Below are positions 1 through 64,000 of a stretch of DNA of 64,000 bases, one piece after another; position 1 is the stretch's first letter, and every line of letters starts with the position of its first letter. The stretch is taken from assembly GCA_963719945.1 (NCBI GenBank), contig CAVRDX010000001.1, positions 800,001-864,000 of the forward strand, in the 5' to 3' direction. The position numbers and the translations under genes are program-made. Source of the DNA: an uncultured Thermoplasmata archaeon. Its GTDB lineage: Archaea > Thermoplasmatota > Thermoplasmata > UBA10834. A model generated the notes under the pieces. That model did no database searches and had not been told where the DNA came from. It saw only the letters and a program-made list of their open reading frames with translations.

Positions 1-1077
1 GGGCACATGCCATACAAGAACTGGAAGAACAACCCCATGTCCATCGCGGTGGCGGTCAGGGGATGCACGCACAACTGCATCAACTGCGCAGGATCGTGCG
101 ACTCGTTCGCCAGGAACTTCGCAAGGACCAAGCCCGCATATCGATCACCAGACCTACTCGCAGATGACATCGCAAAGGCCGAGGAATACATCAAAGGTGC
201 CACATTCATAGTCGGTGATATCAGACAGCCAGGGAAGGCATATGCATCGAAGTTCCTCAAGGCGATAAAGGAGCGCAACGTGGAGAACGAGGTCATCATC
301 GAGCTCTTCACCCCAGCGGACAAGGAATTTGCTGCAGATGTCGGGAAGAGCATCGAGTCGTTCAGCGTCCAGATGTCACCCGAGACTCACGATGACGAGG
401 TCAGGAAGGCTCAGGGAAAGCCGTATACAACTTCAGGGCTTGAGAAATCCATAGATGCGTTCCTGAAAGCGGGTTGTGGTCGATTCGACATATTCTACAT
501 GATAGGGTTGCCGATGCAGACGAGCGATTCAGTCGACGGGACCGTGGCATACACCAGGAAGCTTTACGATCAGTTCAAAGGTCAGAATGTGTTCCCATTC
601 ATCAGTCCATTGGCACCATTCCTGGATCCTGGCGGGAACGCTTTCGAATTCGCGGATAAGCTCGGATACAAACTATTCGCGTCCACGCTCGAGGACCATG
701 TGAGGCTAGCATCCACACCGAGCTGGAAATACGTGCTAAACTACGAGACGCAATGGATGACGAGGGACCAGATTGTCGAATCCACATACTCGGCCGGACT
801 CAACCTCAACTTCATAAAGAAGGAGATGGGGCTGATAGGGGACGATATCGCAGACAGGACCGAGAACAGGATAATCGCTGCTAGGGATATGATGCGCAAG
901 ATCGATTCCATCGTGGCAAAGGGCAAGGCGAGTGGAAACGACCTCGATTCGCTGAGGGAAGCCGCGACCAGGCTCAGCGAATCCACGGTGTGTGAGAAGG
1001 AAGAGCTGGATTGGTCCGAGAGCTCGATCTATGCGAGCATACCAAGGATGGTCAGTGCCCTTCTCAGGAAGAAGTGA
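1..1077 (+). CDS. B12-binding domain/radical SAM protein (5'-truncated by window edge)
   Basis: RGCTHNCINC radical-SAM CxxxCxxC motif; frame open from base 1; resembles archaeal B12-binding radical SAM family. Confidence 0.75.
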   Translation, partial: GHMPYKNWKNNPMSIAVAVRGCTHNCINCAGSCDSFARNFARTKPAYRSPDLLADDIAKAEEYIKGATFIVGDIRQPGKAYASKFLKAIKERNVENEVIIELFTPADKEFAADVGKSIESFSVQMSPETHDDEVRKAQGKPYTTSGLEKSIDAFLKAGCGRFDIFYMIGLPMQTSDSVDGTVAYTRKLYDQFKGQNVFPFISPLAPFLDPGGNAFEFADKLGYKLFASTLEDHVRLASTPSWKYVLNYETQWMTRDQIVESTYSAGLNLNFIKKEMGLIGDDIADRTENRIIAARDMMRKIDSIVAKGKASGNDLDSLREAATRLSESTVCEKEELDWSESSIYASIPRMVSALLRKK

Positions 1078-1110
1078 GGCTGAAGTTATAAGAACGGAAT
1101 CGCCCATGCT

Positions 1111-1848
1111 ATGAGCGGTCCCATGATTCTGAACATATACGGTTATCAGGACTCAGGCAAAACCGTAACTGTGGAGAAGCTCGTCAAGAAGCTGGTTCAG
1201 ATAGGATACAGGGTGTCCTCCGTAAAGCACAGCAGCACTGAAGATGAGATCGACGAAGAGGGCAAGGACACCTGGAGGCACTGGAAAGTCGGAAGCGACC
1301 CTGTCGTCCTGTCCGCCAAGAAAGGGACCGTGTTCTTCATACATTCCGGATTGTCCAGCGATGAGATCATCGAAAGCCTCAAGTGCAGCCATGACCCGGA
1401 TGTGATCATACTCGAAGGATTCAAGGACTCCGACATCTACCCGAAGATCTCCATCGGAGACATAAAACCAAGAAAGGGCACCATAATGAACAACCCTGAC
1501 CTGAAGACCCTGGTGCATTATGTCGAGCACGAGGTCGAGGTCGAGCGACTGATCAAGAGACTGCCAATGCTCAACTGCAGAAAGTGTGGAATGGACTGCG
1601 ATTCACTGGCCAGGGCAATAGTGGAAGGAAGTCGTAGGATAGAGGACTGCAGGGAGATGCCGTCCAGAGAAGTCGAGATACTGGTCGGCGGGAAGAGGAT
1701 AGCGACAGGCACTTTCGTGTCTGAGATAGTCGACGACACGATTCGGGGCATGCTTGGGAGTCTGAAAGGTTACGAATCCGGCAAGGATGTTGAAATCCGT
1801 CTCAAGGCTAATAAGCAGGCTTCGAAAAGAAGTCCATCGAGGAAATGA
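1111..1848 (+). CDS. mobB: Molybdopterin-guanine dinucleotide biosynthesis protein B with C-terminal Fe-S domain
   Basis: GYQDSGKT P-loop, SSVKH, EGKDTWRH, ILEGFK motifs; LPMLNCRKCGMDC...C cluster. Confidence 0.85.
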   Translation: MSGPMILNIYGYQDSGKTVTVEKLVKKLVQIGYRVSSVKHSSTEDEIDEEGKDTWRHWKVGSDPVVLSAKKGTVFFIHSGLSSDEIIESLKCSHDPDVIILEGFKDSDIYPKISIGDIKPRKGTIMNNPDLKTLVHYVEHEVEVERLIKRLPMLNCRKCGMDCDSLARAIVEGSRRIEDCREMPSREVEILVGGKRIATGTFVSEIVDDTIRGMLGSLKGYESGKDVEIRLKANKQASKRSPSRK

Positions 1849-1999
1849 ATAGATGGAGATGACCCAGCACATCCATACATTCTGCGCTAGGTTTATGAAT
1901 GTCTACGATATCCCGAGAGCCAGTATCATATGGGTCCTTCCGCGCTGAAATCGCGGAGGGATCACAGAGGAGCGGTAAACGCTCACCTGGTGACAACTC

Positions 2000-3157
2000 A
2001 TGAGGAAGATCTCAGAGATCGAAAAGGACCTCGATGCATGCCTTCAATGCGGATACTGCAGGGATACCTGCCCAGTCTACAAACAGATCGGTTGGGAATC
2101 GGCCACGCCGAGAGGCAAAGTGTTCTACCTGAAACAGATAAAGAACAAGACCCCGGTGGACACATTGCTCCGAAGGACGCCGAAGATAGATGAGAAGTTC
2201 GTCGAGAGGATATTCCAGTGCACTTCATGCGCTGCATGCGAACATAACTGCCATGTCGAGATCGACTTCGCCAAGCTATGGGAAGAGGTAAAGGAATGGC
2301 TGATTGACCAGGGCCATGGGCCCATGGAAGCCCATAAGAAGATAAAGGAAAGGGTCGTGGCCAAGCACAACCCATTTGATGAGCCTAAGGAGAAGAGGCC
2401 GGCGTGGTTGCCAAAGGATGTGAAGCTCTCAGATAACCCAGAGGTGGTCTTCTTCACCGGTTGCACCGAGGCATACAGGATGCAGCCGCTCGCTGTTGCG
2501 ACCGCAAAGCTCCTGGACAAAGCTGGGGTCGCATTCACTACCATGGGAGAAGAGGAATGGTGCTGCGGGTCGCCGCTCCTTAGGACAGGGCAGAAAATAC
2601 CAGTGATGCAGGAGATCGCACCTCACAACGTGCAGGAGATGGAGAGGCACGGTTGGAAGACGATGGTCACTGCATGCGCGGGCTGCTACAACACGATGAA
2701 GAACGACTATCCGAAGATGGTCGGAAAACCATCGTTCAAGCTCTACCATGTCTCAGAGTACCTAGATAAGCTCATCAAAGAGAACAAGCTCAAATTCACC
2801 AAGGAGTTCAAGAAGAAGGTCGCCTACCACGACCCATGCCACCTTGGAAGGCACGCGAAGGTGTACGATGCCCCCAGGAACGTCCTCAGGGCCATACCTG
2901 GGCTGGAATTGGTTGAGATGAGGCACGAGAAGGGAGATTCTCAGTGCTGTGGCGCTGGTGGAGGGTTCAAAGCCGCCTTCAACGACATGGCGGAGAGCAT
3001 CGCAGCAGATAGGGTCAAGGAAGCCATCGATGCGGGGGCCGAGCTGATCGTCACATCGTGTCCGTTCTGTCAGGTCAACCTCAACGCAGGTGCCAAGAAA
3101 GCGGGCGTGGACATCAAGACGATGGATGTCGTGCAGGTCGCCTTGCAGGCTCTCTGA
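2000..3157 (+). CDS. HdrD/GlpC-like Fe-S oxidoreductase (2x[4Fe-4S] plus two CCG domains)
   Basis: CLQCGYC..CP and CTSCAAC..C ferredoxin motifs; WCCG, TACAGC, HDPCHLGR, CCGAGGG, TSCPFC. Confidence 0.9.
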   Translation: MRKISEIEKDLDACLQCGYCRDTCPVYKQIGWESATPRGKVFYLKQIKNKTPVDTLLRRTPKIDEKFVERIFQCTSCAACEHNCHVEIDFAKLWEEVKEWLIDQGHGPMEAHKKIKERVVAKHNPFDEPKEKRPAWLPKDVKLSDNPEVVFFTGCTEAYRMQPLAVATAKLLDKAGVAFTTMGEEEWCCGSPLLRTGQKIPVMQEIAPHNVQEMERHGWKTMVTACAGCYNTMKNDYPKMVGKPSFKLYHVSEYLDKLIKENKLKFTKEFKKKVAYHDPCHLGRHAKVYDAPRNVLRAIPGLELVEMRHEKGDSQCCGAGGGFKAAFNDMAESIAADRVKEAIDAGAELIVTSCPFCQVNLNAGAKKAGVDIKTMDVVQVALQAL

Positions 3158-3848
3158 TCGAGAGCCGTCTTAGGACGGCCTCGCTTTTCAGTTCTCTGAG
3201 AGCGTCCGAGGCAATCCATTTCGCAGTTCGGGAATCAGATTCGGAGATTTCCTCCGCAACTTCGATCGCCAACTCGTTCAATCTAAGATTGCGCTTGCCG
3301 ATCTGGCGTAGAGCCCAATTGACCGCTTTCTTGACGAAATTCCTATCGTCCCGTGACTCCCGCACGATGACTGGAAAGAATATCATGAATGATTCGTCGG
3401 GCGCATGCTTGTCATGAACAGAGAGTGCAGCCATGATGACGAAACCCGCCCTCTTGACGAACTCTCGATCTGATGATGCGAACTCCATCGCGATCTCATA
3501 GGCAAACGGGGTTCTATCGAAGAGGTTGCTGCAAACCTGGTCGCAAATGTCCCACGAATCGAAGTCAGAGGTCCATGTGATCACCTGCTCGCGCGTGATC
3601 ATCGAAGGTTCGTCTATCATGGAAGCGAGTATTCGGGCCTCGTGTATCCCTGAACCCCAAAGAGAGAGAGCAAGATCATGATCTCTCGGGATGGATTTCG
3701 CCATCCCCCTCAGAGTGGTCACTGAGATGCCAAGTGTGTCGTGAGAAGATATCCCGAATCGGGCCATCCCCGCCACATTAGAAGGATTCTCCATCGACCG
3801 TAGTTCTTCTACGATGGTTTCGAACCTCGATCTCAGATCCCCGTCCAC
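3114..3848 (-). CDS. DNA alkylation repair protein (AlkD-like HEAT-repeat glycosylase)
   Basis: SWDICDQ, FVKRAGF, FVKKAVNWALRQIGKRN motifs. Confidence 0.85.
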   Translation of the reverse strand: MDGDLRSRFETIVEELRSMENPSNVAGMARFGISSHDTLGISVTTLRGMAKSIPRDHDLALSLWGSGIHEARILASMIDEPSMITREQVITWTSDFDSWDICDQVCSNLFDRTPFAYEIAMEFASSDREFVKRAGFVIMAALSVHDKHAPDESFMIFFPVIVRESRDDRNFVKKAVNWALRQIGKRNLRLNELAIEVAEEISESDSRTAKWIASDALRELKSEAVLRRLSIREPARRPARHPSS

Positions 3849-4351
3849 GGAACTCCCTTATGGGCGCTCATAACTATCTGAGTATCTGTCTCCTTGACTC
3901 CATCGATCTTCAGGAAGTTGTCAATGAACTCCTGCAGCTCGCTCATGCCAACGAAGAGGGCAACGACGAGTAGGTCGTATTCGCCAGTTACGCGATATAC
4001 GGCGACCACGCGGTTGTGGTTGACGACATGGTCGACGACCCTGTCCAACTTATCGGTCACGGTCTTGAGGTGGATATAGGCCTTCACGGTATTCTCGATA
4101 AGTCGGTAGTCTATGTGGATCGAGAAGCGCATGATTATGCCCTTGTCAATGAGATTCTTGATACGCCTTCTGACGGTGGCCTCAGTGACATCGAGCTTCT
4201 TGGCGATCTCCGAGTTGCTCATCCTCGCGTTCTCGCGGAGTTCGCACAGGATGCGTATGTCTGTCTTGTCAATCGGGAGCAGCTTGAGATCCAGACCCTT
4301 CCATCTCTCGAATATCTCGCAAGGGTGCTGGCTTAGCGGAAGTGTGTTCAT
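3833..4351 (-). CDS. Lrp/AsnC family transcriptional regulator
   Basis: DKTDIRIL..L.ENARMSNSEIAKKLDVTEATVRRRIKNL HTH; VTGEYDL ligand-binding domain. Confidence 0.92.
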   Translation of the reverse strand: MNTLPLSQHPCEIFERWKGLDLKLLPIDKTDIRILCELRENARMSNSEIAKKLDVTEATVRRRIKNLIDKGIIMRFSIHIDYRLIENTVKAYIHLKTVTDKLDRVVDHVVNHNRVVAVYRVTGEYDLLVVALFVGMSELQEFIDNFLKIDGVKETDTQIVMSAHKGVPWTGI

Positions 4352-4490
4352 CAGATCCCGGAGTCCCGTAGATTGATAGAGTACTTCAATCTAACGGAAT
4401 TCATGCAAAAAAGCGTCCCCGTGTATGCGTTTTCGTACATGAACAGCACATTTGATAACGATTGGTGATACGAAAATCGGCGAAAACCGC

Positions 4491-5273
4491 TCATTTGCCG
4501 AACCGACGGCCTCTCATCTGATATGACCGCACAGCCCTCAGGAAGTCGATCTTCCTGAAGCCAGGCCAGTACACATCGGAAAAATATAACTCTGAATATG
4601 CGAGCTGCCACAACAGGAAGTTGGAGATTCGCTCCTCGCCAGACGTCCTCAGGATGAGGTCCGGGTCTGGCAGTTCAGCGGTGTAAAGATATCCCGAGAA
4701 CAACTCAGAATCGATGCTGTCCACGGTGATCTTCCCGTCCTTGACATCCCTTGCCATGTTCCTGATCGCATCTATGATCTCCTCCCTTCCGCCGTATCCA
4801 ACTGCGATATTGAAGAAGTAGTTGTCATAATCCTTTGTCTTCTCCTCCGCATACATGATGGATTCCTTGAGATCCTTGGGAAGGAGGTCCCGAGAACCTA
4901 TGACCCTGACCCGTATCCTGTTCTTGTGGACCCTGTCGTCGTCGCCCAGCACTTTGAAGTTCTGCACGAACATGCGCATCAGTGTCTCTATCTCACCCTT
5001 CTCCCTGCTGACGTTCTCTGTTGAGAAGGCATAGACGGTGAGCACCCTGATACCGAGCTCCAAACACCATTCAAGCATCTCCTCGAGCTTGTCCTTCCCC
5101 TTCTCATGGCCTTCTGAGACCAGAATGCCCACCTCGTGAGCATAACGTCTGTTGCCATCCATTATGACCGCTACATGGTGCGGGACCGGATTGGACATGA
5201 CCTCTTTCAGCAGACGCTTCTCATAGGTCTGGTAGGCAGTACTGGAAATAGCTCTTGAGATCTCACCAGTCAT
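4491..5273 (-). CDS. uppS: cis-polyprenyl (undecaprenyl-type) diphosphate synthase
   Basis: HVAVIMDGNRRYA, YAFSTEN, PDLILRTSGEERISNFLLWQ, RRFG. Confidence 0.95.
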   Translation of the reverse strand: MTGEISRAISSTAYQTYEKRLLKEVMSNPVPHHVAVIMDGNRRYAHEVGILVSEGHEKGKDKLEEMLEWCLELGIRVLTVYAFSTENVSREKGEIETLMRMFVQNFKVLGDDDRVHKNRIRVRVIGSRDLLPKDLKESIMYAEEKTKDYDNYFFNIAVGYGGREEIIDAIRNMARDVKDGKITVDSIDSELFSGYLYTAELPDPDLILRTSGEERISNFLLWQLAYSELYFSDVYWPGFRKIDFLRAVRSYQMRGRRFGK

Positions 5274-5311
5274 TTGTTTCGCACCAACTCTATAGAAGAG
5301 GCTTATTAAAG

Positions 5312-6268
5312 TTATGTGTGTCCGAAATCCTCGGGAAGGCCAGCACTGTAAAGGCCCAGGTCAAAACAGCCGATAGCGGCAACCGCTCCTATCGCCCCGC
5401 GTTCGCCTGTCACCTTTATGACCTTGACACCATTCATCTCGGCCACATGTTCTGCATCGTGTATAGATAATATTGTATCCTTGGCCTGGGCTCCGAATCT
5501 GACAAGGGATGCTGGTATGTCCAGACCTTCGAAGGCAGTCATAACGGTCTGGTCTGAGTATGTGTTCTCCGATATGAATTTCCGGCACCATTCTATGGTT
5601 CTCTCGATGTCGTCTGCAAGAACCGCGAAGGACAACGCTGTGGCCGCGCAATTAGTGGTCTTCTGAGGAGCATGAGGGTTGAGTTGGACAATCTTGTGCG
5701 ACAGCAGGAGTCCGTAGGGCATCTCCCGGCCCATCTTCAGACCAGTGACCCATGTCGCCCCCTTCTCCTTAGTGTCAGTGTCGTCAACGCCGATTATCAA
5801 ACGCCTATGCGCAGGAGTGGTCAACCGTATCTCCACCTGCCGCGAACCGCCGACCTGCTCGTCGCTCAGGTATTCAACTTTCTCCACGCCCTCGGCCTGT
5901 GGGAGGCATGCACCCACACCCACGCTAGCTCCTGCAAGGCCCATCCAAGTGGTCTCGACCTTGCCGTCGCGGACATGGAGGGATTTCAGCGCCTGCCCGC
6001 CAGTCTCCTTCGCAGCAGGTCCGAACCGGACTTCGCCCTCTCCTATCCGCGCATCCATTATCAGGGTGGTTCCCTGCACCTCGACATGATCGACAACGCC
6101 TCCTGCCCTGAGCCTATTGATCGCGTCCCATTCCACAGGCCCCTGAGCACAGCATTCTTCCACGATCTTGGCCCGTTTGGACCTCTCATCGACCATGGTG
6201 ATTAGCCGTCTGGCGAACATGCCACCATGCTTTTCACGTATCTGCGCTGGGGTAAATACCTTGGACAT
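5312..6268 (-). CDS. mmp11: Methanogenesis marker protein 11-like (DUF1743/TiaS-N related)
   Basis: GLAGASVGVG, IIGVDDTDTKEKGATW, HKIVQL.P....KTTNC, GAIGAVAAIG pattern recalled for this family. Confidence 0.7.
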   Translation of the reverse strand: MSKVFTPAQIREKHGGMFARRLITMVDERSKRAKIVEECCAQGPVEWDAINRLRAGGVVDHVEVQGTTLIMDARIGEGEVRFGPAAKETGGQALKSLHVRDGKVETTWMGLAGASVGVGACLPQAEGVEKVEYLSDEQVGGSRQVEIRLTTPAHRRLIIGVDDTDTKEKGATWVTGLKMGREMPYGLLLSHKIVQLNPHAPQKTTNCAATALSFAVLADDIERTIEWCRKFISENTYSDQTVMTAFEGLDIPASLVRFGAQAKDTILSIHDAEHVAEMNGVKVIKVTGERGAIGAVAAIGCFDLGLYSAGLPEDFGHT

Positions 6269-6274
6269 TCGTGA

Positions 6275-6955
6275 TCAGACTTCCAGGGTTTCGCCAGGTT
6301 CCATTATGGCTACTCTCGCCTTGGACGATTTCTTGACAAGCTTCGCAAATTCCGCTGGATCCTGCTCGATAAGAGGCCAGGTCCCATAGTGCATTGGTAT
6401 GACCATCTTGGGTTCTATCAACTTCGTCGCAAGGGCGGCCTGTCGCGGATCCATCGTATAGAAACCGCCGATTGGAAGCATGGCGATCTCTGGCTTGTAC
6501 AGCTCGCCGATAAGCTTCATGTCCCCGAACACACTGGTGTCCCCTGCATGATAAATGATCTTGCCAGTATCAATGATCAGCCCAACGGCCATGGCCGCTG
6601 AGAACTCCAGTCCTGGAGCACCTATGCTGGAAGAATGGAATGCTGGCACCATGGTGATGCTGGTATCCCGGACCTTCACGGTCCCGCCAAGATTGAATCC
6701 GATGCTCTTCACTTCACATCTCTCGAGATATGCGGACATCTCGACGATTGAGACGATCTCGGCTCCAGTCCGTCGTGCGATCGGTACGGCATCGCCAAGG
6801 TGGTCTCCGTGTCCATGAGTGACGCATATGATGTCGCAGTCTACCTCCTCGGGCTTAACGGCTGCCTTCGGATTGCCCGTCAGAAACGGATCGACCAGTA
6901 CCTTGTCTCGGCCTTCTATCAGAAACGCTGAATGACTTAGCCACTTTATCTTCAT
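6275..6955 (-). CDS. Metal-dependent hydrolase, UPF0173 metallo-beta-lactamase fold
   Basis: VDPFLTGNP, THGHGDH, YHAGDT, LPIGG.YTM, IPMHYGTW; start chosen at MKIKWLSH. Confidence 0.9.
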   Translation of the reverse strand: MKIKWLSHSAFLIEGRDKVLVDPFLTGNPKAAVKPEEVDCDIICVTHGHGDHLGDAVPIARRTGAEIVSIVEMSAYLERCEVKSIGFNLGGTVKVRDTSITMVPAFHSSSIGAPGLEFSAAMAVGLIIDTGKIIYHAGDTSVFGDMKLIGELYKPEIAMLPIGGFYTMDPRQAALATKLIEPKMVIPMHYGTWPLIEQDPAEFAKLVKKSSKARVAIMEPGETLEV

Positions 6956-7014
6956 GCCAACCATCCCATGGACTCCATGGCCCACTGGCTATTTCTTAGT
7001 TTTGAACCCAGCCA

Positions 7015-7869
7015 TCACGGAGCTGGATCGATAGCCAAGTACCTGCCGACCAGATCCTGTAGACTCATTGCCCGGACCCCATGATCCTCATATATCAACC
7101 ATTTCCCCTTGACCCCGAGGGGGTTGCCCCTGTGCCGGCCAGAGGTCTCCATGAGTTCCGGAGGGGATTGTAGAGGCAGAGATATCGGATATCCTTCCAG
7201 AAAGGTCAATGGCTCGGCCGAGAGCCCGTAACGATCATTGATCGAGGATGCGATCGATCGGTATACGCGCTCCATTGCAGGAGGATCTACGGGGTCGGTG
7301 AACCCCTGCAGCACAGTCCGCTGACGAATCCCCTGTGATATACTGAGCTTGGACGACACATCCTTCTCCGCAGACCGGGCTTTCTTCCTGTTCGGGTAGC
7401 TTCCGATTATGGAGAACGCATCTGCGCCCTGCTCGATCAATCGACGCTCGACCCTTCGGGTGGAGCTCATCCCGATCTTCGGGATCGTATTATAGAACGC
7501 AAGGTAGAGTACATGTTCCCTCTTGCAGAACTCGATGTCACATTCCTCCCCCTCGCACCTGGGCTCGAACACGCATTCCTGGAATGGGATGAAAGACTCG
7601 CCGGAGCATGATTCGCACTGAGGGAACTTGGTCACCTGAGATCCGCCAGGGCATTTGACATGCCTGTCACCATCGAAGTATCCCACACATGTCTTCGACT
7701 TGCTCACGGTCATGGCCAACCGCGGGACGTCCAGCTCTAAGATGCCACCGTCCCTCCGATCGAGGCAGACCAATGACGGTCTGAAACCGTTCCACTCGAA
7801 TTCGAGCACGTGTAACGGCAGGGAATCCTGCCTCATCTCGAGCCAAAGCACGTCTGCGCCGACGAACAT
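7015..7869 (-). CDS. DUF2797-like protein with Cys clusters
   Basis: C.GY, CESC, FCKREHVLYLA, KIGMS, RLIEQGA, GVKG motifs; start uncertain. Confidence 0.7.
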   Translation of the reverse strand: MFVGADVLWLEMRQDSLPLHVLEFEWNGFRPSLVCLDRRDGGILELDVPRLAMTVSKSKTCVGYFDGDRHVKCPGGSQVTKFPQCESCSGESFIPFQECVFEPRCEGEECDIEFCKREHVLYLAFYNTIPKIGMSSTRRVERRLIEQGADAFSIIGSYPNRKKARSAEKDVSSKLSISQGIRQRTVLQGFTDPVDPPAMERVYRSIASSINDRYGLSAEPLTFLEGYPISLPLQSPPELMETSGRHRGNPLGVKGKWLIYEDHGVRAMSLQDLVGRYLAIDPAP

Positions 7870-7950
7870 CTAGCATAACCTCTGACACGATACCTTTTAT
7901 CGATTACGGTGGGTCTACTGAAAATAGGCCTTGCCAGATCATCGGATGGT

Positions 7951-8688
7951 CTATTCCTCGACATCCTTGGAAGGAGAGGAATCATCGGGATCAGCGGGAC
8001 CATGATCGGCATCGCTGACATCGGTCGATTCCGGTGGTGGGTACTCCGACATATCGACCTCGATCCTCTTCAGATACTGGGGGGGTACATCGTTGGTGAG
8101 ATAGACCGTCTTGCCCGCTTTCTGGATCACGATACCGTCCTCGGCCGCGGCATTCGAATCGACCTCCAGTATAATCGGACTCTCCGTCCTGACCCTGCCC
8201 GCATTCACCGCGTCACCGACGGTCTTGCTGAGGTGGACTTTCTTCCTGTCCGAGGGTTTAAGACCGACCTCCAATACGATGTCGACCTCCTCGGCGGTTA
8301 TCGGATAGTAGAGCTTTTCTGGTGTCCCTATCGAGTCGGCGTCCAATTCTACCTCGAATGAGTGTGCATAGGTGGCCCGTATCATGCCGTCCCTGACCTC
8401 ATATCTGCCCTTGTCATCCGTCTCTATGATGGCGATTATGTGATGAGTCCTGAGCCAGTGATATCTCCTCTGCTTCCTCTGAATCGCGTTCACGAAGCCT
8501 CTGAGGTCCACGAAACCCTGTCGGTCCACTTGTAGATCGAATCTCTCGGGGAAGTGCCTGAGAACTCCTGCGAGGGTCCTGCTGAGCCTATCGAGTTCCT
8601 CATCGTTCATGAGAAACCGACCTTCTTGGCCGCAGACGGGGCAGAACTCGGCCCTGAAATAACCGTGATCCCTACATTCTTTCAACAT
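7951..8688 (-). CDS. kptA: RNA 2'-phosphotransferase (Tpt1/KptA) with N-terminal Zn ribbon and acidic tail
   Basis: CRDHGYFR...CPVC, LAGVLRHFPE, KGRYE, IRATYAHS, VHLS; start at MLKEC (8688). Confidence 0.9.
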   Translation of the reverse strand: MLKECRDHGYFRAEFCPVCGQEGRFLMNDEELDRLSRTLAGVLRHFPERFDLQVDRQGFVDLRGFVNAIQRKQRRYHWLRTHHIIAIIETDDKGRYEVRDGMIRATYAHSFEVELDADSIGTPEKLYYPITAEEVDIVLEVGLKPSDRKKVHLSKTVGDAVNAGRVRTESPIILEVDSNAAAEDGIVIQKAGKTVYLTNDVPPQYLKRIEVDMSEYPPPESTDVSDADHGPADPDDSSPSKDVEE

Positions 8689-8869
8689 GCTTTTCCCGAA
8701 GAACGGGTTATGCGGGAGCCCGATAAAAGCTTTCGCTCGTACGCGAGTGACTGGTGCATCTGCCAAACCATCGGTTAGCCAAGATAGTGCGCCAGGACAG
8801 GACTGCACAGAAAGAAGGAAAATGGTTGTTTGAAGGGGTTTGGGGCAAGAGCGATCTGCTCTGACCGCT

Positions 8870-10183
8870 TCAGGCTTCCTGCGGTTCGGCCTTCTTCTCG
8901 TAATTCCACGGGCCCTTGGTTATGAACGCGAGCGCAAATGCGACAAGCGAACCGATACCGACGGCGATGAACACGTACTCGAACCCGCCGGTGATTATGC
9001 CGGGGATGAGTCCGCCGATCACACCGCCCATTGCGTAGGCCGTGAAGACGATGCCGTAGTTGTTGCCGAAGTACTTGGTCCCGAAGAAGTCCGAAGTCGT
9101 AGGCGGAAACAAAGCGAAGTTGCCACCGAAGCAGAAGCCAGACAGGGATGCCAACGCCGTGAATCCAAGGAACTGCACATTCTCGTCCGTTGGCTTGCTC
9201 ATGATGAAGGCCGCAGCAGCGAACAATATTATCGCTTGAGTGAGGAACATCGCCCTCATGGCCTTCGTCCTTCCCAGCTTGTCGGATATTATGCCCCATG
9301 CGATCCTGCCTGCTCCGTTGAACACCGCCAGTATTCCGACGATAGTAGCGACCTGAGATATCACCATGACATTCTCTGCCACTGGATCGAAACTTGGGTT
9401 CGCATCAGCATAGATGTCCTCCAGATTCTGAGAGACGTTGCCGATGTTCCCGATCATCATCAGACCGCAGGTAGCGGACAATACGAACATGACCCAAAGG
9501 AGCTTGAAGCTCTTCGTCCCCATCATCTCTCGCCACTGGATGTCCTTGCCCTCCGAGCTGCCTGCCACCATCTTCGGAGGAGACCAGCCCTTCGGACAAT
9601 ATCCCGCTGGCGGGTTTATCAGGAACAATGCACCAATGAACACCATCGCGAAGAATATGATGCCGAGGTACAGGTACGCTGCAGAAATGCCACCCGAGTT
9701 GTCCACGAAGTACTTGCCTACCTGGGCGAATACAAACGTGCCAGCGCCGAAACCGGCTACCGCGATCCCGCTGACGAGTCCCTTCTTGTCAGGGAACCAC
9801 TTCAGGCAACATGCGATCGGGCAACCGTATCCGAAACCGACACCGATTCCAAGAACAGTATATCCGACATACATCAGGGCCAGGCTATCCGTGGACACTG
9901 ACGATATCATGTATCCCGCAGCGTATACAACGGCCGAGAGCATAGTGATCTTCATCGGACCGTGTTTATCCTGTAACTTTCCGCCAACCATCACGAACAA
10001 GCCGAAACCAGCCAAGCTCGTCGCGAATATCCCTAGCACCGCAAGCGACTTCGCACCTTCTCCGAGCTCAGCCGCCAAGGGCTTGTTGAAGACCGACCAG
10101 GCGTATATGGAGCCCAACGCAAGCTGGACCAACAAAGCGCCGATGACCGGTATCCATCTGTTCATTACTTTCTCTTCTGCCAT
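8870..10183 (-). CDS. OFA (oxalate/formate antiporter, OxlT-like) family MFS transporter
   Basis: GSIYAWSVF, KWFPDKKGLVSGIAVAGFGAG, FNGAGRIAWG..SDK.GR, FGGNF. Confidence 0.85.
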   Translation of the reverse strand: MAEEKVMNRWIPVIGALLVQLALGSIYAWSVFNKPLAAELGEGAKSLAVLGIFATSLAGFGLFVMVGGKLQDKHGPMKITMLSAVVYAAGYMISSVSTDSLALMYVGYTVLGIGVGFGYGCPIACCLKWFPDKKGLVSGIAVAGFGAGTFVFAQVGKYFVDNSGGISAAYLYLGIIFFAMVFIGALFLINPPAGYCPKGWSPPKMVAGSSEGKDIQWREMMGTKSFKLLWVMFVLSATCGLMMIGNIGNVSQNLEDIYADANPSFDPVAENVMVISQVATIVGILAVFNGAGRIAWGIISDKLGRTKAMRAMFLTQAIILFAAAAFIMSKPTDENVQFLGFTALASLSGFCFGGNFALFPPTTSDFFGTKYFGNNYGIVFTAYAMGGVIGGLIPGIITGGFEYVFIAVGIGSLVAFALAFITKGPWNYEKKAEPQEA

Positions 10184-61492: not shown

Positions 61493-61593
61493 GGGCCCAT
61501 GGTCTAGCGGTTATGACACCTGCTTGACATCGCTTTTCCTCCGGGAAGGCGTCAAATTGCAGGTAATCACCGGTTCGAATCCGGTTGGGCCCA
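61493..61593 (+). tRNA. tRNA-Val(GAC) with 28-nt canonical 37/38 intron (61530-61557)
   Basis: Acceptor GGGCCCA/TGGGCCC-A, anticodon stem CCTGC/GCAGG, GAC 61526-61528, ACCGG-TTCGAAT-CCGGT T-arm; BHB helix TTGA/TCAA; TTATAG TATA upstream. Confidence 0.93.
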
Positions 61594-61800
61594 CTATCTT
61601 CCTTCTGGCTATTTTCCAATCAGGGTCTTTTTGTACCGGGATATGAACCTTTTCATCGCCTTTCCTCGTGAAATCGATGGTTCAGGTTGCAACGCATGCA
61701 GAACCCGACAGACTGGCTGATTTCTATCGCAGGAAATTGACGACGATCTGGACCCCTTCTCAGCTTCTTTTCCTGCTATTGCTACAGAGGAATTAATGGG

Positions 61801-61826
61801 TGGACCGAAAGGGATTTGAACCTCTG
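61801..61826 (-). repeat. Orphan tRNA 3'-end fragment (tRNA-Ala-like)
   Basis: Minus strand CAGAGGTTCAAATCCCTTTCGGTCCA = T-arm plus acceptor strand with U70; no 5' half found. Confidence 0.55.
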
Positions 61827-61877
61827 AAGTGCCAGTGTGTCAAGACTCGGATTCAATCAACGGGGAATTGGCCGGAG

Positions 61878-62060
61878 CTAACCCCCTTTCTTTTCCTTCA
61901 AATTCTTGTTCGGAGTGAAGATTCCAGCAGATGAACTAATCAAACCGATTCCGATAATGCCCACAACAGCTGCCACACCAGGTTCAATCTTACCCATCAA
62001 CAATAGCCCTGAAGCGATTCCACAAATCACCAATCCAGTGATGAAAAGAATCTTAATCAT
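61878..62060 (-). CDS. 60-aa two-TM membrane microprotein
   Basis: Two hydrophobic helices plus basic tail; GAGGGA SD upstream; AT-richer codons than core genes. Confidence 0.65.
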   Translation of the reverse strand: MIKILFITGLVICGIASGLLLMGKIEPGVAAVVGIIGIGLISSSAGIFTPNKNLKEKKGG

Positions 62061-62227
62061 TGCCAGTCCCTCTCTTGGTCGAATCGCCTCAGGTGGTTTA
62101 AGGGTTTCTCCGGAGTCCCGCTCCTATGGCATTTTCCGAGGCGAGGCTCAACCCCCCCCCCCCTTCCCTGTTTTCAGAACGGTACGAATTCTTATCTATG
62201 AAGAACTCGATGAACAAAACGAAGGAA

Positions 62228-62572
62228 ATGATGCTATATCTGACAAGCTACAATCTGAAAGATGGGCGTGCTGGGGAATACTCTGCTTGGGTGAAGAAGA
62301 ACAAGAAGAGCATACAGGACCATGCACCTCCGGGATGGAAGTTTCGCGGGATTTATGGATCTGTTCTGGGCTTTGGTCGGTATGATGTCACCGAGATATG
62401 GGAGCTCAGGAAGTACGCTGACTTCGACACCTTCCGCGACTGGGACGACAAGGTCAGTCTCCGATTGCAGGCGGAAGCGCAAGACTTCATGCTACCCGGG
62501 GCGAATGAATCGACATTGCTTAGAGAAGTCAGCGATGTTGTGGTCATCGATCACAAGAAGCCGAAGAAGTGA
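62228..62572 (+). CDS. Hypothetical protein, probable dimeric alpha-beta barrel (NIPSNAP/GYD-like)
   Basis: YLTSYNLK.G...GWKFRGIY...GRYDVTEIWEL..YADFD pattern; GAAGGA SD. Confidence 0.65.
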   Translation: MMLYLTSYNLKDGRAGEYSAWVKKNKKSIQDHAPPGWKFRGIYGSVLGFGRYDVTEIWELRKYADFDTFRDWDDKVSLRLQAEAQDFMLPGANESTLLREVSDVVVIDHKKPKK

Positions 62573-62949
62573 ATCTAGTCGTCCTAAACCTTTTGGTCTT
62601 TCCGCCCCTATGGCCTTTTGCGCGCTCTCAGATGCGGTTCGAGGCGGGATTCGCCAAGACCGAATAACGACCGGTTCCAACGTCGTTGTCGCGACCGGTT
62701 ACGACCTATCGTGACGCTCTATCGTGAAACACGATCTTCAAAGAGCTGTACTGGCGCCACCTGCTCGTCTGTAGCTCGTCTCATCTCGTGAGAACGGTGC
62801 GAGTGCCGGCACGCGCTTCGGACGCCTATTGATGCAAGGAATCATGAAGAGGAACAAGAAGGAGGAAAAGAAAAAGATCAAGAGGTTTCTCGGACTGGCC
62901 TTCTGCTATCGATAATGAATTAGAATCCGAGCCGCACTATCTGGCCGCG

Positions 62950-63008
62950 CACGAGTTCAGGCCCGGTTGGGCCCACTACATCTTATCTGGCTAAATTCTA
63001 ATCAGCGT
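62950..63008 (+). repeat. Copy 2 of the tRNA-Val 3' end plus downstream arm (att-like)
   Basis: CCGGTTGGGCCCACTA (62963-62978) identical to 61581-61596; followed after 7 nt by TCTGGCTAwwTTCyAATCAG as in copy 1. Confidence 0.85.
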
Positions 63009-63129
63009 TTTGGGTTTTTCGCAACAGGTGCTTCCCAGGCTGTCGCATGAGGGAGAACGCGGGTTCGAATTTAATCAGTGACAGAGCGTCTATATTACCA
63101 CGGACACCATTATGGGTCCGAGGGGAAAA

Positions 63130-63723
63130 ATGGCGGGGTCGTCGGGAAACTCGAAGAGCAGTGTAATTCTGACGTTCGTCGCAGTGTTCTTCGTTATGGC
63201 ATCAGCATGGATGACATGGTACACCATCTCCAACGAGCATACGACTGTGTCCGAGTATTGGCTGGACCACTTCGATCCGGAATGGGGCAATTATGGAGTC
63301 GAGACATATGACATCTATGACCAGGTTGACGAAGTGATGTTGGGACTGAAGTTTTTCACCATTCTGTGGTTCCTTGCAGCTCTATTCTTTGTGGGTCAAA
63401 TCATGACAGACAAATCCGGTCCTATCAGGGAAATCATCGCGGGTGCAACTCCTATTGCTTTGGGCATTGGGATGCTGGCATACTTTGCACTAGCGTTCCC
63501 TGGAGCTTGTCCTTCACCGTTAGTCTCAGGATTCTTTTCGAGCACAACGGTCGGCGGCGTCGTGTATACAGGAAGCCCCGGAGGAGGATTTTATCTGGTT
63601 GCAGTAGCCTGTGTATTTCAGGCATTGGCAGTAACGCTTCGTTTCAAATCAGTCTTCTCAAAACCGCGTTCGCCTGAACCCACCGCATGCGAGGCTCGCG
63701 TTGGCACGGAACCCCCGAAGTGA
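63130..63723 (+). CDS. Hypothetical 4-TM membrane protein
   Basis: Four hydrophobic segments with W..Y N-terminal loop and PGGGFYL before the last TM; start at 63112 or 63130. Confidence 0.7.
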   Translation: MAGSSGNSKSSVILTFVAVFFVMASAWMTWYTISNEHTTVSEYWLDHFDPEWGNYGVETYDIYDQVDEVMLGLKFFTILWFLAALFFVGQIMTDKSGPIREIIAGATPIALGIGMLAYFALAFPGACPSPLVSGFFSSTTVGGVVYTGSPGGGFYLVAVACVFQALAVTLRFKSVFSKPRSPEPTACEARVGTEPPK

Positions 63724-63861
63724 GCTGCATCATATCCGACGGATCAGACCTAATGAAATTTCGTGCAGAGAAGGTTTGAGGAAGGAAAGAAGAAAATGAT
63801 CTGCTGCGTTCCACCTCGAAATCCCCAGATTGCAGATTAGATTACAGCTAGTGTGCCCTAC

Positions 63862-63886
63862 TCGAATCGGGTTGGGCCCACTACAT
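63862..63886 (+). repeat. Copy 3 of the tRNA-Val 3' end (att-like)
   Basis: TCGAATCGGGTTGGGCCCACTA matches the tRNA end plus flank at 21/22; shares an extra CAT with copy 2. Confidence 0.85.
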
Positions 63887-64000
63887 ATTCTTGCCAGATA
63901 ATGGACTACAGGATTCAGACCGCATGATTTCGCATACTTCGAAGTCTTGAGCCTTTATGCTGAATGACGCTTGGTTCGGGACCAAATAGACCCACTCTTG

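What the first reader, a model, noticed from the sequence alone, without database searches (positions are those of the whole stretch)
61568..63886. tRNA-Val-anchored array of tiny integrase-free gene cassettes (integron-like architecture)
Seen: the 3' end of tRNA-Val (core GGTTGGGCCCACTA) recurs in direct orientation at 62963-62978 and 63862-63883. These copies delimit segments of about 1.4 kb and 0.9 kb that carry only 1-2 small hypothetical genes. Copies 1 and 2 also share a non-tRNA arm at identical spacing (7 nt, then TCTGGCTAwwTTCyAATCAGsGT); copies 2 and 3 share an extra CAT. No integrase lies in either segment. Known: tyrosine integrases duplicate tRNA 3' ends on integration. Inference: repeated tandem capture of related non-autonomous mini-elements mobilised in trans, forming a cassette array that may continue past the window edge.
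Basis: partly seen in the sequence, partly recalled or inferred. Interest (0 to 1): 0.8.

Follow-up and report, generated by a model that had tools for sequence, protein, structure and literature searches.

The report
Integrase-less gene cassettes stacked behind tRNA-Val
Behind a valine tRNA gene of an uncultured Thermoplasmata archaeon lie three small insertions that have lost their own integration enzyme but keep its docking sequences. One of them has recently moved to a different valine tRNA gene in a related species, so this is an archaeal, miniature version of the stacked mobile-element build-up known from bacteria, not an integron.

Summary
tRNA-Val(GAC) carries a 28-nt intron and lies at 61493-61594. 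Its 3' end recurs at 62957-62978 and 63862-63883, and a fourth time 2.2 kb beyond the window edge, giving three integrase-less segments of 1.4, 0.9 and 2.3 kb.

The shared "arm" is the integrase-proximal arm of a family of Thermoplasmata tRNA-integrating elements. In relatives it lies at the same spacing between a tyrosine-integrase stop codon and the tRNA end.

- **Segment 2:** it begins with this arm plus about the last 25 codons of such an integrase, so it is an integrase-deleted derivative.
- **Segment 1:** it is 99.7% identical, core to core, to a copy behind tRNA-Val(TAC) in a relative whose backbone is only 87-91% identical. An integrase-less unit therefore moved recently.
- **Relatives:** they carry different content at this site, including a full element with integrase, resolvase and primase-helicase.

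The best reading is tandem accretion of CIME-like non-autonomous elements. It is not an integron: there is no IntI and no attC-type hairpin. Mobilisation in trans or in cis is inferred, not shown.

This scan has reported the same kind of array before, at tRNA-Leu and tRNA-Ala in this genome and in more than 20 other Thermoplasmata genomes.

The parts
61493..61594 (+). tRNA-Val(GAC) gene with a 28-nt intron; the integration target
   Evidence: Rfam RF00005, 58.2 bits; aragorn -i
61575..61596 (+). att copy 1: the 22-nt core, made of the tRNA 3' end plus CTA. The CTA comes from the cassette.
   Evidence: G000's own tRNA-Val(TAC) and G005's tRNA-Val(GAC) lack the CTA.
61597..61772 (+). Left-end module of cassette 1. 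It holds the integrase-proximal-type arm (motif at 61605-61623) and a second arm-like motif about 110 nt further in. It is not protein-coding.
   Evidence: The arm aligns at fixed spacing with arms next to full-length integrases. The module recurs at 75-92% identity, several times per genome. The ORF in it is broken in other copies.
61799..61878 (-). Inverted tRNA-Ala-type att remnant (tRNA-Ala 3' fragment plus class II arm) nested inside cassette 1
   Evidence: An 87-nt match at 89.7% lies in G005's tRNA-Val(GAC) island.
61878..62060 (-). Cargo ORF of 60 aa, predicted small membrane protein, no family hit
   Evidence: This module recurs in G010, G058, G020, G055 and G059.
62198..62572 (+). 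Cargo ORF of 124 aa, an archaeal hypothetical family with only a weak NIPSNAP-like lead. A 12-C homopolymer lies upstream at about 62152-62163.
62900..62956 (+). Right-hand (class II) arm of cassette 1
   Evidence: Aligns with the arm before copy 4, with the Ala fragment arm, and with integrase-proximal arms of Arg/Trp-type integrases
62957..62978 (+). att copy 2 (82% identical to the 22-nt core). This is the right boundary of the unit shared with G005.
62979..63085 (+). Left end of cassette 2: the arm plus a remnant of about the last 25 codons of a Val-type integrase gene, read on the minus strand and carrying a 1-nt deletion
   Evidence: L001:2963-3066 is 88.6% identical to the 3' end of a full-length integrase gene plus its arm in L127. 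It is 91.5% identical to G010 core 2 plus integrase remnant and appears in alignment A1. The codon reading is my own inspection of the sequence.
63112..63723 (+). Cargo ORF of 203 aa, a predicted multi-pass membrane protein with no family hit and a patchy distribution (8 of 46 family genomes including G000)
63785..63861 (+). Right-hand (class I) arm of cassette 2: an inverted arm motif followed by a degenerate inverted copy of the core
   Evidence: 79.6% identical to the right end of the 2.6-kb Val element of G060; alignment A2; local hairpin
63862..63883 (+). att copy 3 (95% identical to the 22-nt core)
63884..64000 (+). Start of cassette 3. It runs to C1:866191 and carries a 179-aa ArsR-type HTH regulator, an 86-aa membrane ORF and a 355-aa ORF, all on the minus strand. 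att copy 4 lies at C1:866192-866213.

Best explanation
This is a tandem-accretion array at the 3' end of tRNA-Val(GAC).

Elements of one family of Thermoplasmata integrative elements inserted here repeatedly. These elements encode a non-suicidal tyrosine integrase that lies convergent on the target tRNA. Each insertion recombined at the 12-nt block shared by all copies and pushed older insertions outward.

The three resident units have lost the integrase and whatever replication genes they had. They keep the tRNA-derived core and the element arms on both sides, so each is still a complete attL...attR unit: a CIME-like, non-autonomous element with 1-3 cargo genes.

A family integrase supplied by another element could still excise and re-insert them. 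That element could lie elsewhere in the cell (trans) or be integrated next to them (cis). Insertion is possible into any tRNA gene with the same 3' end, namely Val-GAC, Val-TAC, Val-CAC and Ile-GAT.

**Shown:** the att copies, the arms and their link to integrases, the integrase remnant in cassette 2, variable site occupancy in relatives, and the near-identity of cassette 1 at another tRNA-Val gene in another species.

**Inferred:** that the arms are integrase-binding sites, the position of the crossover, and which integrase acts.
For: **att copies.** There are four direct copies of the core, far above chance.

**The arm belongs to integrase-bearing elements.**
- The arm after copies 1, 2 and 4 sits at the same spacing as in sites where a full-length integrase ends next to the tRNA. 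Examples are G004 and G022 at Leu-CAG and metagenome contig L127 at Val-GAC (alignment A1).
- By my reading, about 19 of 30 integrase loci in relatives show the motif between the integrase stop codon and the tRNA.
- In G000 the AT-rich form of the motif occurs only next to tRNA-type cores: 4 of 47 loose regex hits, the rest looking random.

**A complete parent element exists.** L127 is the syntenic locus (BPL_N, HdrE-like and HdrD-like genes). It carries a full element with a 392-aa integrase, a serine resolvase and a D5-like primase-helicase.

**Cassette 2 is a deletion derivative.**
- The sequence after copy 2 is 88.6% identical to that integrase's 3' end plus arm.
- Integrase 3' remnants of graded length lie next to tRNA-Val in G056, G060, G020 and G010.
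- Both ends of cassette 2 bound a 2.6-kb element in G060.

**Cassette 1 moved recently.**
- Window 61578-62977 matches G005:C2 with 3 substitutions and 1 homopolymer indel.
- In G005 it sits behind tRNA-Val(TAC).
- Identity stops exactly at the second core.
- The flanking chromosome is only 87-91% identical.

**Site occupancy varies.**
- G005's tRNA-Val(GAC) lacks all three cassettes and runs straight into the arm that follows copy 4 in G000.
- G006 and G010 carry other content.
- Cassette-1 end modules recur in 28 of 45 family genomes, often several per genome.

**Composition.** GC of the island is 0.45-0.50, against 0.52-0.57 in the flanks.
Against: - No cognate Val/Ile-type integrase was found in this assembly (87% complete). 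It holds only a XerA-like gene and one family integrase, which lies at a tRNA-Leu(CAG)-type site on contig C2.
- Cassettes 2 and 3 show no sign of recent movement. They could be inert fossils.
- Integrase binding to the arms is inferred from position and conservation only.
- Cassette 1 combines a Leu-CAG-type left arm with a Val core and a different class of right arm, so its ends are not a simple matched pair.
Confidence: 0.75

Rival explanations
1. The segments are inert fossils. Each is what remains, in place, of a full-size integrated element after internal deletions. None is mobile any more, and the array only records past integrations.
For: - Cassette 2 starts with an integrase 3' remnant.
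- Relatives show a graded series of truncated integrases at this tRNA.
- Loss of integrase genes after integration is described for archaeal elements (PMC8371274).
- No cognate integrase is in the assembly.
Against: - Cassette 1, without an integrase, is almost identical at a different tRNA-Val gene in a species about 10% diverged, with the same core-to-core boundaries. Independent identical deletions are very unlikely.
- Its end modules are multi-copy across the family.
Confidence: 0.15
2. This is a dedicated integron-like gene-capture platform. A specialised recombinase encoded elsewhere inserts and shuffles standardised cassettes at tRNA genes as a host-beneficial system.
For: - Several tRNA genes of this genome carry such arrays: Leu-CAA with 8 extra copies, Arg-TCG with 2, and Ala.
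- The ends are standardised and shared between different tRNA targets.
- The cassettes are small.
Against: - No IntI-like gene or attI-like site flanks the array.
- The sites are not attC-like hairpins, with z-scores of -0.85 to +0.43.
- The arms are those of ordinary self-mobile elements that carry an integrase and a replication module.
- Gene orientation is mixed, and there is no common outward promoter.
Confidence: 0.07
3. The repeats arose by chance, by assembly artefact, or by local duplication of the tRNA 3' region without site-specific recombination.
For: The exact repeats are short (12-22 nt).
Against: - Zero of 100 shuffles reach the observed count.
- The contig is 906 kb in a 4-contig assembly, and 16-22-nt repeats cannot mislead an assembler.
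- The same end types bound elements in other genomes.
- Cassette boundaries coincide with the cores in two genomes.
Confidence: 0.02

Closest known systems
CIMEs (cis-mobilizable elements) and tandem accretion at att sites, ICESt1/ICESt3 family of Streptococcus (reviewed in PMC5704250; Pavlovic et al. 2004 and Bellanger et al. 2011 as cited there)
   Same: [quoted passage not shown] It sits in tandem with other elements at the 3' end of a tRNA gene, after successive site-specific integrations into the regenerated att site.
   Different: - The host is an archaeon.
- The parent elements are small integrase plus primase-helicase elements, not conjugative ICEs.
- The units are very small, 0.9-2.3 kb.
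- The ends are mosaic, with two arm classes and a nested inverted Ala-type att.
- Cis-mobilisation has not been shown here.
Tycheposon-built islands at tRNA genes in Prochlorococcus (bioRxiv 10.1101/2020.12.28.424599)
   Same: These are islands next to tRNA genes in which elements are separated only by partial tRNA copies. Newer arrivals push older ones inward, and fragmented integrases and extra partial tRNAs lie scattered through the island.
   Different: - The domain of life and the integrase lineage differ.
- That paper treats integrase-less pieces as degenerate fragments without clear boundaries. Here the integrase-less units keep precise boundaries, and one has moved.
Tandem integrated elements and post-integration integrase loss in archaea (PMC8371274; PMC6563490)
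   Same: Archaeal elements with tyrosine recombinases re-use one site and form arrays. Integrated elements without an integrase are attributed to gene loss after integration.
   Different: In the passages I read (term searches in these two papers) I found no account of kilobase-size integrase-less units with conserved two-sided arms, and none of such a unit found near-identical at another tRNA gene in another species.
Integrons and CALINs (clusters of attC sites lacking an integrase); comparison from my own knowledge
   Same: A row of small cassettes is separated by recombination sites, with no recombinase inside the row.
   Different: - There is no IntI, attI or Pc promoter.
- The sites are tRNA-derived cores with flanking arms, not single-strand attC hairpins.
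- The cassettes derive from self-mobile elements.

Membership tests
Integron / CALIN | IntI-type tyrosine recombinase with attI next to the array (integron), or attC sites (CALIN) | tested here: not met
   There are no PF00589 hits in the island. The only hits in the genome are the XerA-like gene at C1:430395 and the integrase on C2.
Integron / CALIN | attC sites: imperfect palindromes recombined as folded single strands | tested here: not met
   The sites with their arms fold no better than shuffles, with z between -0.85 and +0.43. Rfam found only the tRNA. The sites are copies of a tRNA 3' end.
Integron / CALIN | Mostly promoterless single-ORF cassettes in one orientation | tested here: not met
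   Cassette 1 has two ORFs on opposite strands. Cassette 3 has three ORFs on the minus strand, and cassette 2 has one on the plus strand.
CIME / tandem accretion | Unit bounded by attL and attR copies of the target's 3' end | tested here: met
CIME / tandem accretion | No integration or transfer genes inside the unit | tested here: met
   Pfam, NCBIfam and tblastn with three integrase queries found none.
CIME / tandem accretion | Derived from an integrase-bearing element with the same att specificity | tested here: met
   Cassette 2 carries an integrase 3' remnant plus arm, 88.6% identical to L127. The arms of cassettes 1 and 3 match arms next to integrases.
CIME / tandem accretion | Excision and transfer promoted by the integrase of a related element | not testable with these tools
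   The only evidence is indirect: cassette 1 is near-identical at tRNA-Val(TAC) of G005. The read-level test was unavailable.
SSV-type (suicidal) archaeal integrase elements | The att site lies inside the integrase ORF, so integration splits the gene | tested here: not met
   In relatives the integrase gene is intact and ends about 25-60 nt from the tRNA end, outside the core.
Non-suicidal tRNA-targeting tyrosine-integrase elements (parent family) | Intact PF00589 integrase adjacent to a tRNA 3'-end att site, with a direct repeat of the core at the far end | tested here: met
   This was met for parent elements in relatives, not inside this array. G006 has a 15-kb element with attL and attR at tRNA-Leu(CAG). 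L127 has one at tRNA-Val(GAC).

The most novel reading that the evidence does not exclude
Thermoplasmata of this family may run a genome-wide cassette economy. Kilobase-size, integrase-less gene cassettes with standardised modular ends would be inserted, stacked, inverted and exchanged between several tRNA genes and between species. The enzymes would be a few element-borne tyrosine integrases acting in trans. That would be a functional analogue of integrons built on tRNA att sites, in which the arm modules rather than the cargo are the unit under selection.
Probability: 0.3. Interest if true: 0.75.

Novelty: new variant of a known kind. Interest (0 to 1): 0.55.

Why it matters
Uncultured Thermoplasmata have no described plasmid or virus genetics, and how their small genomes gain accessory genes is poorly known.

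This locus shows, with base-level boundaries, that a 1.4-kb unit without a recombinase is shared almost unchanged between two species and between two tRNA-Val genes. It also ties the unit's ends to a definable integrase family with a complete parent element. The integrase, core and arms are therefore all identified, which gives a testable archaeal model for non-autonomous integrative elements.

It also warns annotators. The tRNA fragments and small 'hypothetical' genes behind tRNA genes in these genomes are mobile-element debris and cargo, not core genes.

Tried and rejected
- **Default ARAGORN tool:** it found no tRNA in the window because of the intron. Rfam and aragorn -i resolved this.
- **Integrase remnants in the array:** tblastn with the C2 integrase, the G023 Ile-type integrase and the G056 Val-type remnant found no protein-level remnant in the Val array. 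The remnant after copy 2 was seen only at the DNA level.
- **Metagenome scan:** an exact 30-nt scan for the right arm of cassette 1 gave 0 hits.
- **The search for related loci for the 124-aa cargo in genome contigs:** one distant locus only.
- **Arm as a general genomic motif:** a loose regex gave 47 hits, of which only the 4 beside tRNA cores have the AT-rich form. Rejected.
- **42-aa ORF in the left-end module as a conserved small protein:** for example an excisionase. It is broken by stops and frameshifts in other copies. Rejected.
- **attR of the L127 element:** not found within the 15.9 kb held.
- **Homologues of the 124-aa cargo:** most lie away from tRNAs or arms, so the gene family itself is not cassette-specific. 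Only the 100% copy (G005) and the 67% copy (G045) are flanked by arms.
Full report
**1. What is in the sequence**

The window is C1:800001-864000 of a 1.78-Mb, 4-contig assembly (87% complete) of an uncultured archaeon. The only hit in named genome records was a 'Thermoplasmata archaeon' MAG.

A tRNA-Val(GAC) gene with a 28-nt intron lies at 61493-61594. Rfam scores it at 58.2 bits and aragorn with introns allowed finds it. The default tRNA tool missed it.

A genome-wide search added a fourth direct copy with one mismatch at C1:866200, 2.2 kb past the window end.

As 22-mers, the copies are 100, 82, 95 and 77% identical. A 12-nt block, the last nine bases of the tRNA plus CTA, is common to all four. 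The start-to-start spacings are 1382, 905 and 2330 nt.

The three segments contain the following:

| Segment | ORFs | Strand |
|---|---|---|
| 1 | 60 aa and 124 aa | opposite strands |
| 2 | 203 aa membrane ORF | plus |
| 3 | 179-aa ArsR-type regulator, 86 aa, 355 aa | minus |

None contains a recombinase. The whole assembly has only a XerA-like gene and one other PF00589 gene, on contig C2. The island has a GC content of 0.45-0.50, against 0.52-0.57 around it.

**2. What the arm is**

The 19-nt motif sits at fixed spacing after copies 1, 2 and 4 (alignment A1). It also follows the tRNA-Val(GAC) gene of relatives in other genera (G005, G018, G020).

I searched the family's 46 genomes for homologues of the C2 integrase and read the DNA beyond each gene's 3' end. 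In about 19 of 30 loci the integrase gene runs towards a tRNA gene on the opposite strand. The motif, in reverse complement, then lies between the stop codon and the tRNA 3' end, again at a spacing of about 8-12 nt. The targets include Leu-CAG, Ile-GAT, Val-GAC, and others that use a second arm type.

The arm is therefore the integrase-proximal arm of a family of ordinary, non-suicidal, tRNA-integrating elements. It is not a feature of cassettes as such. In G000 the AT-rich form of the motif is found only beside tRNA-type cores.

A complete 15-kb element at tRNA-Leu(CAG) of G006 shows the motif again, inverted, 10 nt before the far-end core. The reconstructed attP therefore has inverted arm motifs on both sides of the core.

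The upstream arms in the Val array fall into two classes (alignment A2):
- **Class I** (copy 3, G060, G006, G010 and the C2 site): an inverted motif about 10 nt from a long core.
- **Class II** (copies 2 and 4, and an inverted tRNA-Ala-type site nested in segment 1): resembles the integrase-proximal arms of more distant family integrases at tRNA-Arg and tRNA-Trp.

That these arms bind the integrase is an inference from position and conservation.

**3. Parent elements and decay**

A protein search with the 109-aa integrase remnant that lies beside tRNA-Val in G056 found full-length integrases at 77-78% identity.

One of them, P0001 (392 aa), lies on a 26-kb metagenome contig in the syntenic chromosomal neighbourhood (BPL_N, HdrE-like and HdrD-like genes). 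It is convergent on tRNA-Val(GAC) and sits in an element that also carries a serine resolvase and a D5-like primase-helicase.

The G000 sequence from copy 2 onward (L001:2963-3066) is 88.6% identical to that integrase's 3' end plus arm. On the minus strand the last 25 or so codons can still be read, with a one-base deletion (my reading of the sequence). Segment 2 is therefore an integrase-deleted derivative.

Other genomes show the same decay at different stages:
- Its two ends also bound a 2.6-kb element in G060 that keeps 111 integrase codons.
- G056, G020 and G010 keep 109, 55 and 61 codons.

**4. Site occupancy in relatives**

The three closest relatives have 86-88% protein identity in the flanking BPL_N gene. 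They carry different content between tRNA-Val(GAC) and the conserved msrA/ClC genes:

| Genome | Distance from tRNA-Val(GAC) to msrA | Content |
|---|---|---|
| G000 | 10.6 kb | three cassettes plus later genes |
| G005 | 6.9 kb | other content |
| G006 | 2.8 kb | other content |
| G010 | not measured | 9.8-kb element, then a core and an integrase remnant |

In G005 the tRNA runs directly into an arm 86% identical to the one after G000 copy 4. The three cassettes are therefore additions, or G005 losses, relative to a shared older arm.

**5. Evidence that an integrase-less unit moved**

The 124-aa cargo protein of segment 1 has a 100% identical copy in G005 on another contig. At the DNA level, L001:1566-2977 matches L039:870-2280 at 99.65%.

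The five differences break down as follows:
- one native T-loop base of the two different tRNAs,
- three substitutions,
- one change in the length of a C-run (12 versus 11).

In G005 the unit sits behind tRNA-Val(TAC), and identity stops right after the second core. The surrounding chromosome of the two genomes is only 87-91% identical.

G000's own tRNA-Val(TAC) has no cassette and lacks the CTA, which is therefore cassette-derived. The crossover must lie between the T-loop and the end of the tRNA.

Identical boundaries at two different tRNA genes in two species are what site-specific excision and re-integration of the integrase-less unit would give. Independent decay of two full elements would not give this.

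Segment 1 is the unit next to the tRNA. That position fits the expectation that the newest arrival lies there.

**6. Modularity**

A DNA search with segment 1 found its pieces in 28 of 45 family genomes, often several times per genome. The recurring pieces are:
- the roughly 170-nt left-end module,
- the Ala-type site,
- the 60-aa gene,
- the right-end module.

In most other copies the left-end module follows an inverted, slightly degenerate tRNA-Leu(CAG) core rather than a Val core. Arms and cores are therefore re-assorted.

The module is not protein-coding and contains a second arm-like motif.

**7. Comparison with known systems**

[quoted passage not shown] This array fits it.
- **Tycheposons.** Tycheposon islands show the same layout, with partial tRNAs and fragmented integrases.
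- **Archaea.** Tandem integration and post-integration integrase loss are on record. In the passages those term searches returned, I found nothing on kilobase-size two-armed integrase-less units, or on one shared between tRNA genes of two species.
- **Integrons.** This is not an integron. There is no IntI or attI, and the sites do not fold like attC.

**8. Limits**

- No read-level evidence of circles or empty alleles could be obtained.
- The cognate integrase is absent from this incomplete assembly.
- Mobilisation in trans and in cis cannot be told apart.
- Cassettes 2 and 3 may be inert.

**9. Earlier notes of this scan**

Earlier notes, which are unchecked AI leads, report the same kind of array at tRNA-Leu and tRNA-Ala in this genome and in more than 20 other Thermoplasmata genomes. 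I saw the Leu-CAA, Arg-TCG and Ala copies myself.

Noticed in passing
G000 C1:139110-157855 (outside the window): tRNA-Leu(CAA) is followed by 8 further copies of its 3' end, each preceded by a highly conserved upstream arm of about 70 nt. Two pairs of copies lie exactly 13,416 nt apart with identical flanks, which suggests a large internal duplication.
   Followed up: partly
G000 C4:316095-318650 (outside the window): tRNA-Arg(TCG) has two further 3'-end copies. Their upstream arms are class II, like those before Val copies 2 and 4.
   Followed up: partly
G000 C2:21651-22830 (L003:997-2180): The only element-type integrase of the assembly is followed by the arm and then a tRNA-Leu(CAG) core in sense orientation. 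This is flipped relative to the usual integrase-convergent-on-tRNA layout of relatives. G042 (L083) shows the same flipped layout with a tRNA-Ala core. The matching intact tRNA-Leu(CAG) lies at C1:900492-900577, near the end of contig C1, so the element may span the C1/C2 gap.
   Followed up: partly
window 61799-61878 (minus strand): A tRNA-Ala-type att remnant (3' fragment plus class II arm) lies inverted inside cassette 1. An 87-nt stretch recurs at 89.7% in G005's tRNA-Val(GAC) island and in many other genomes.
   Followed up: partly
window 62152-62163: A 12-C homopolymer lies upstream of the 124-aa cargo gene. The G005 copy of the cassette has 11 C. This is a possible slippage-prone tract or a sequencing-length ambiguity.
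   Followed up: no
window 63849-63883: Copy 3 is preceded by a degenerate inverted copy of the core, forming a local hairpin in the fold. This right-end type is shared with G060.
   Followed up: partly
window 62118-62145 and 62600-62658: Two further arm-like motifs without a tRNA core bracket the 124-aa gene. The second lies in a stretch that recurs on its own in several genomes.
   Followed up: no
G000 C1:85044-85175 and C1:479914-480021 (outside the window): Short integrase C-terminal remnants lie next to tRNA-Ala(TGC) and tRNA-Ala(CGC), convergent on the tRNAs. These are further decayed members of the same element family.
   Followed up: no
L124 (G010:C75) 213-10021: The 9.8-kb element behind G010's tRNA-Val(GAC) encodes very large ORFs (698, 338, 523 and 1320 aa) and no integrase. 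Its right end carries the cassette-1 left arm in inverted orientation. The cargo was not annotated.
   Followed up: no
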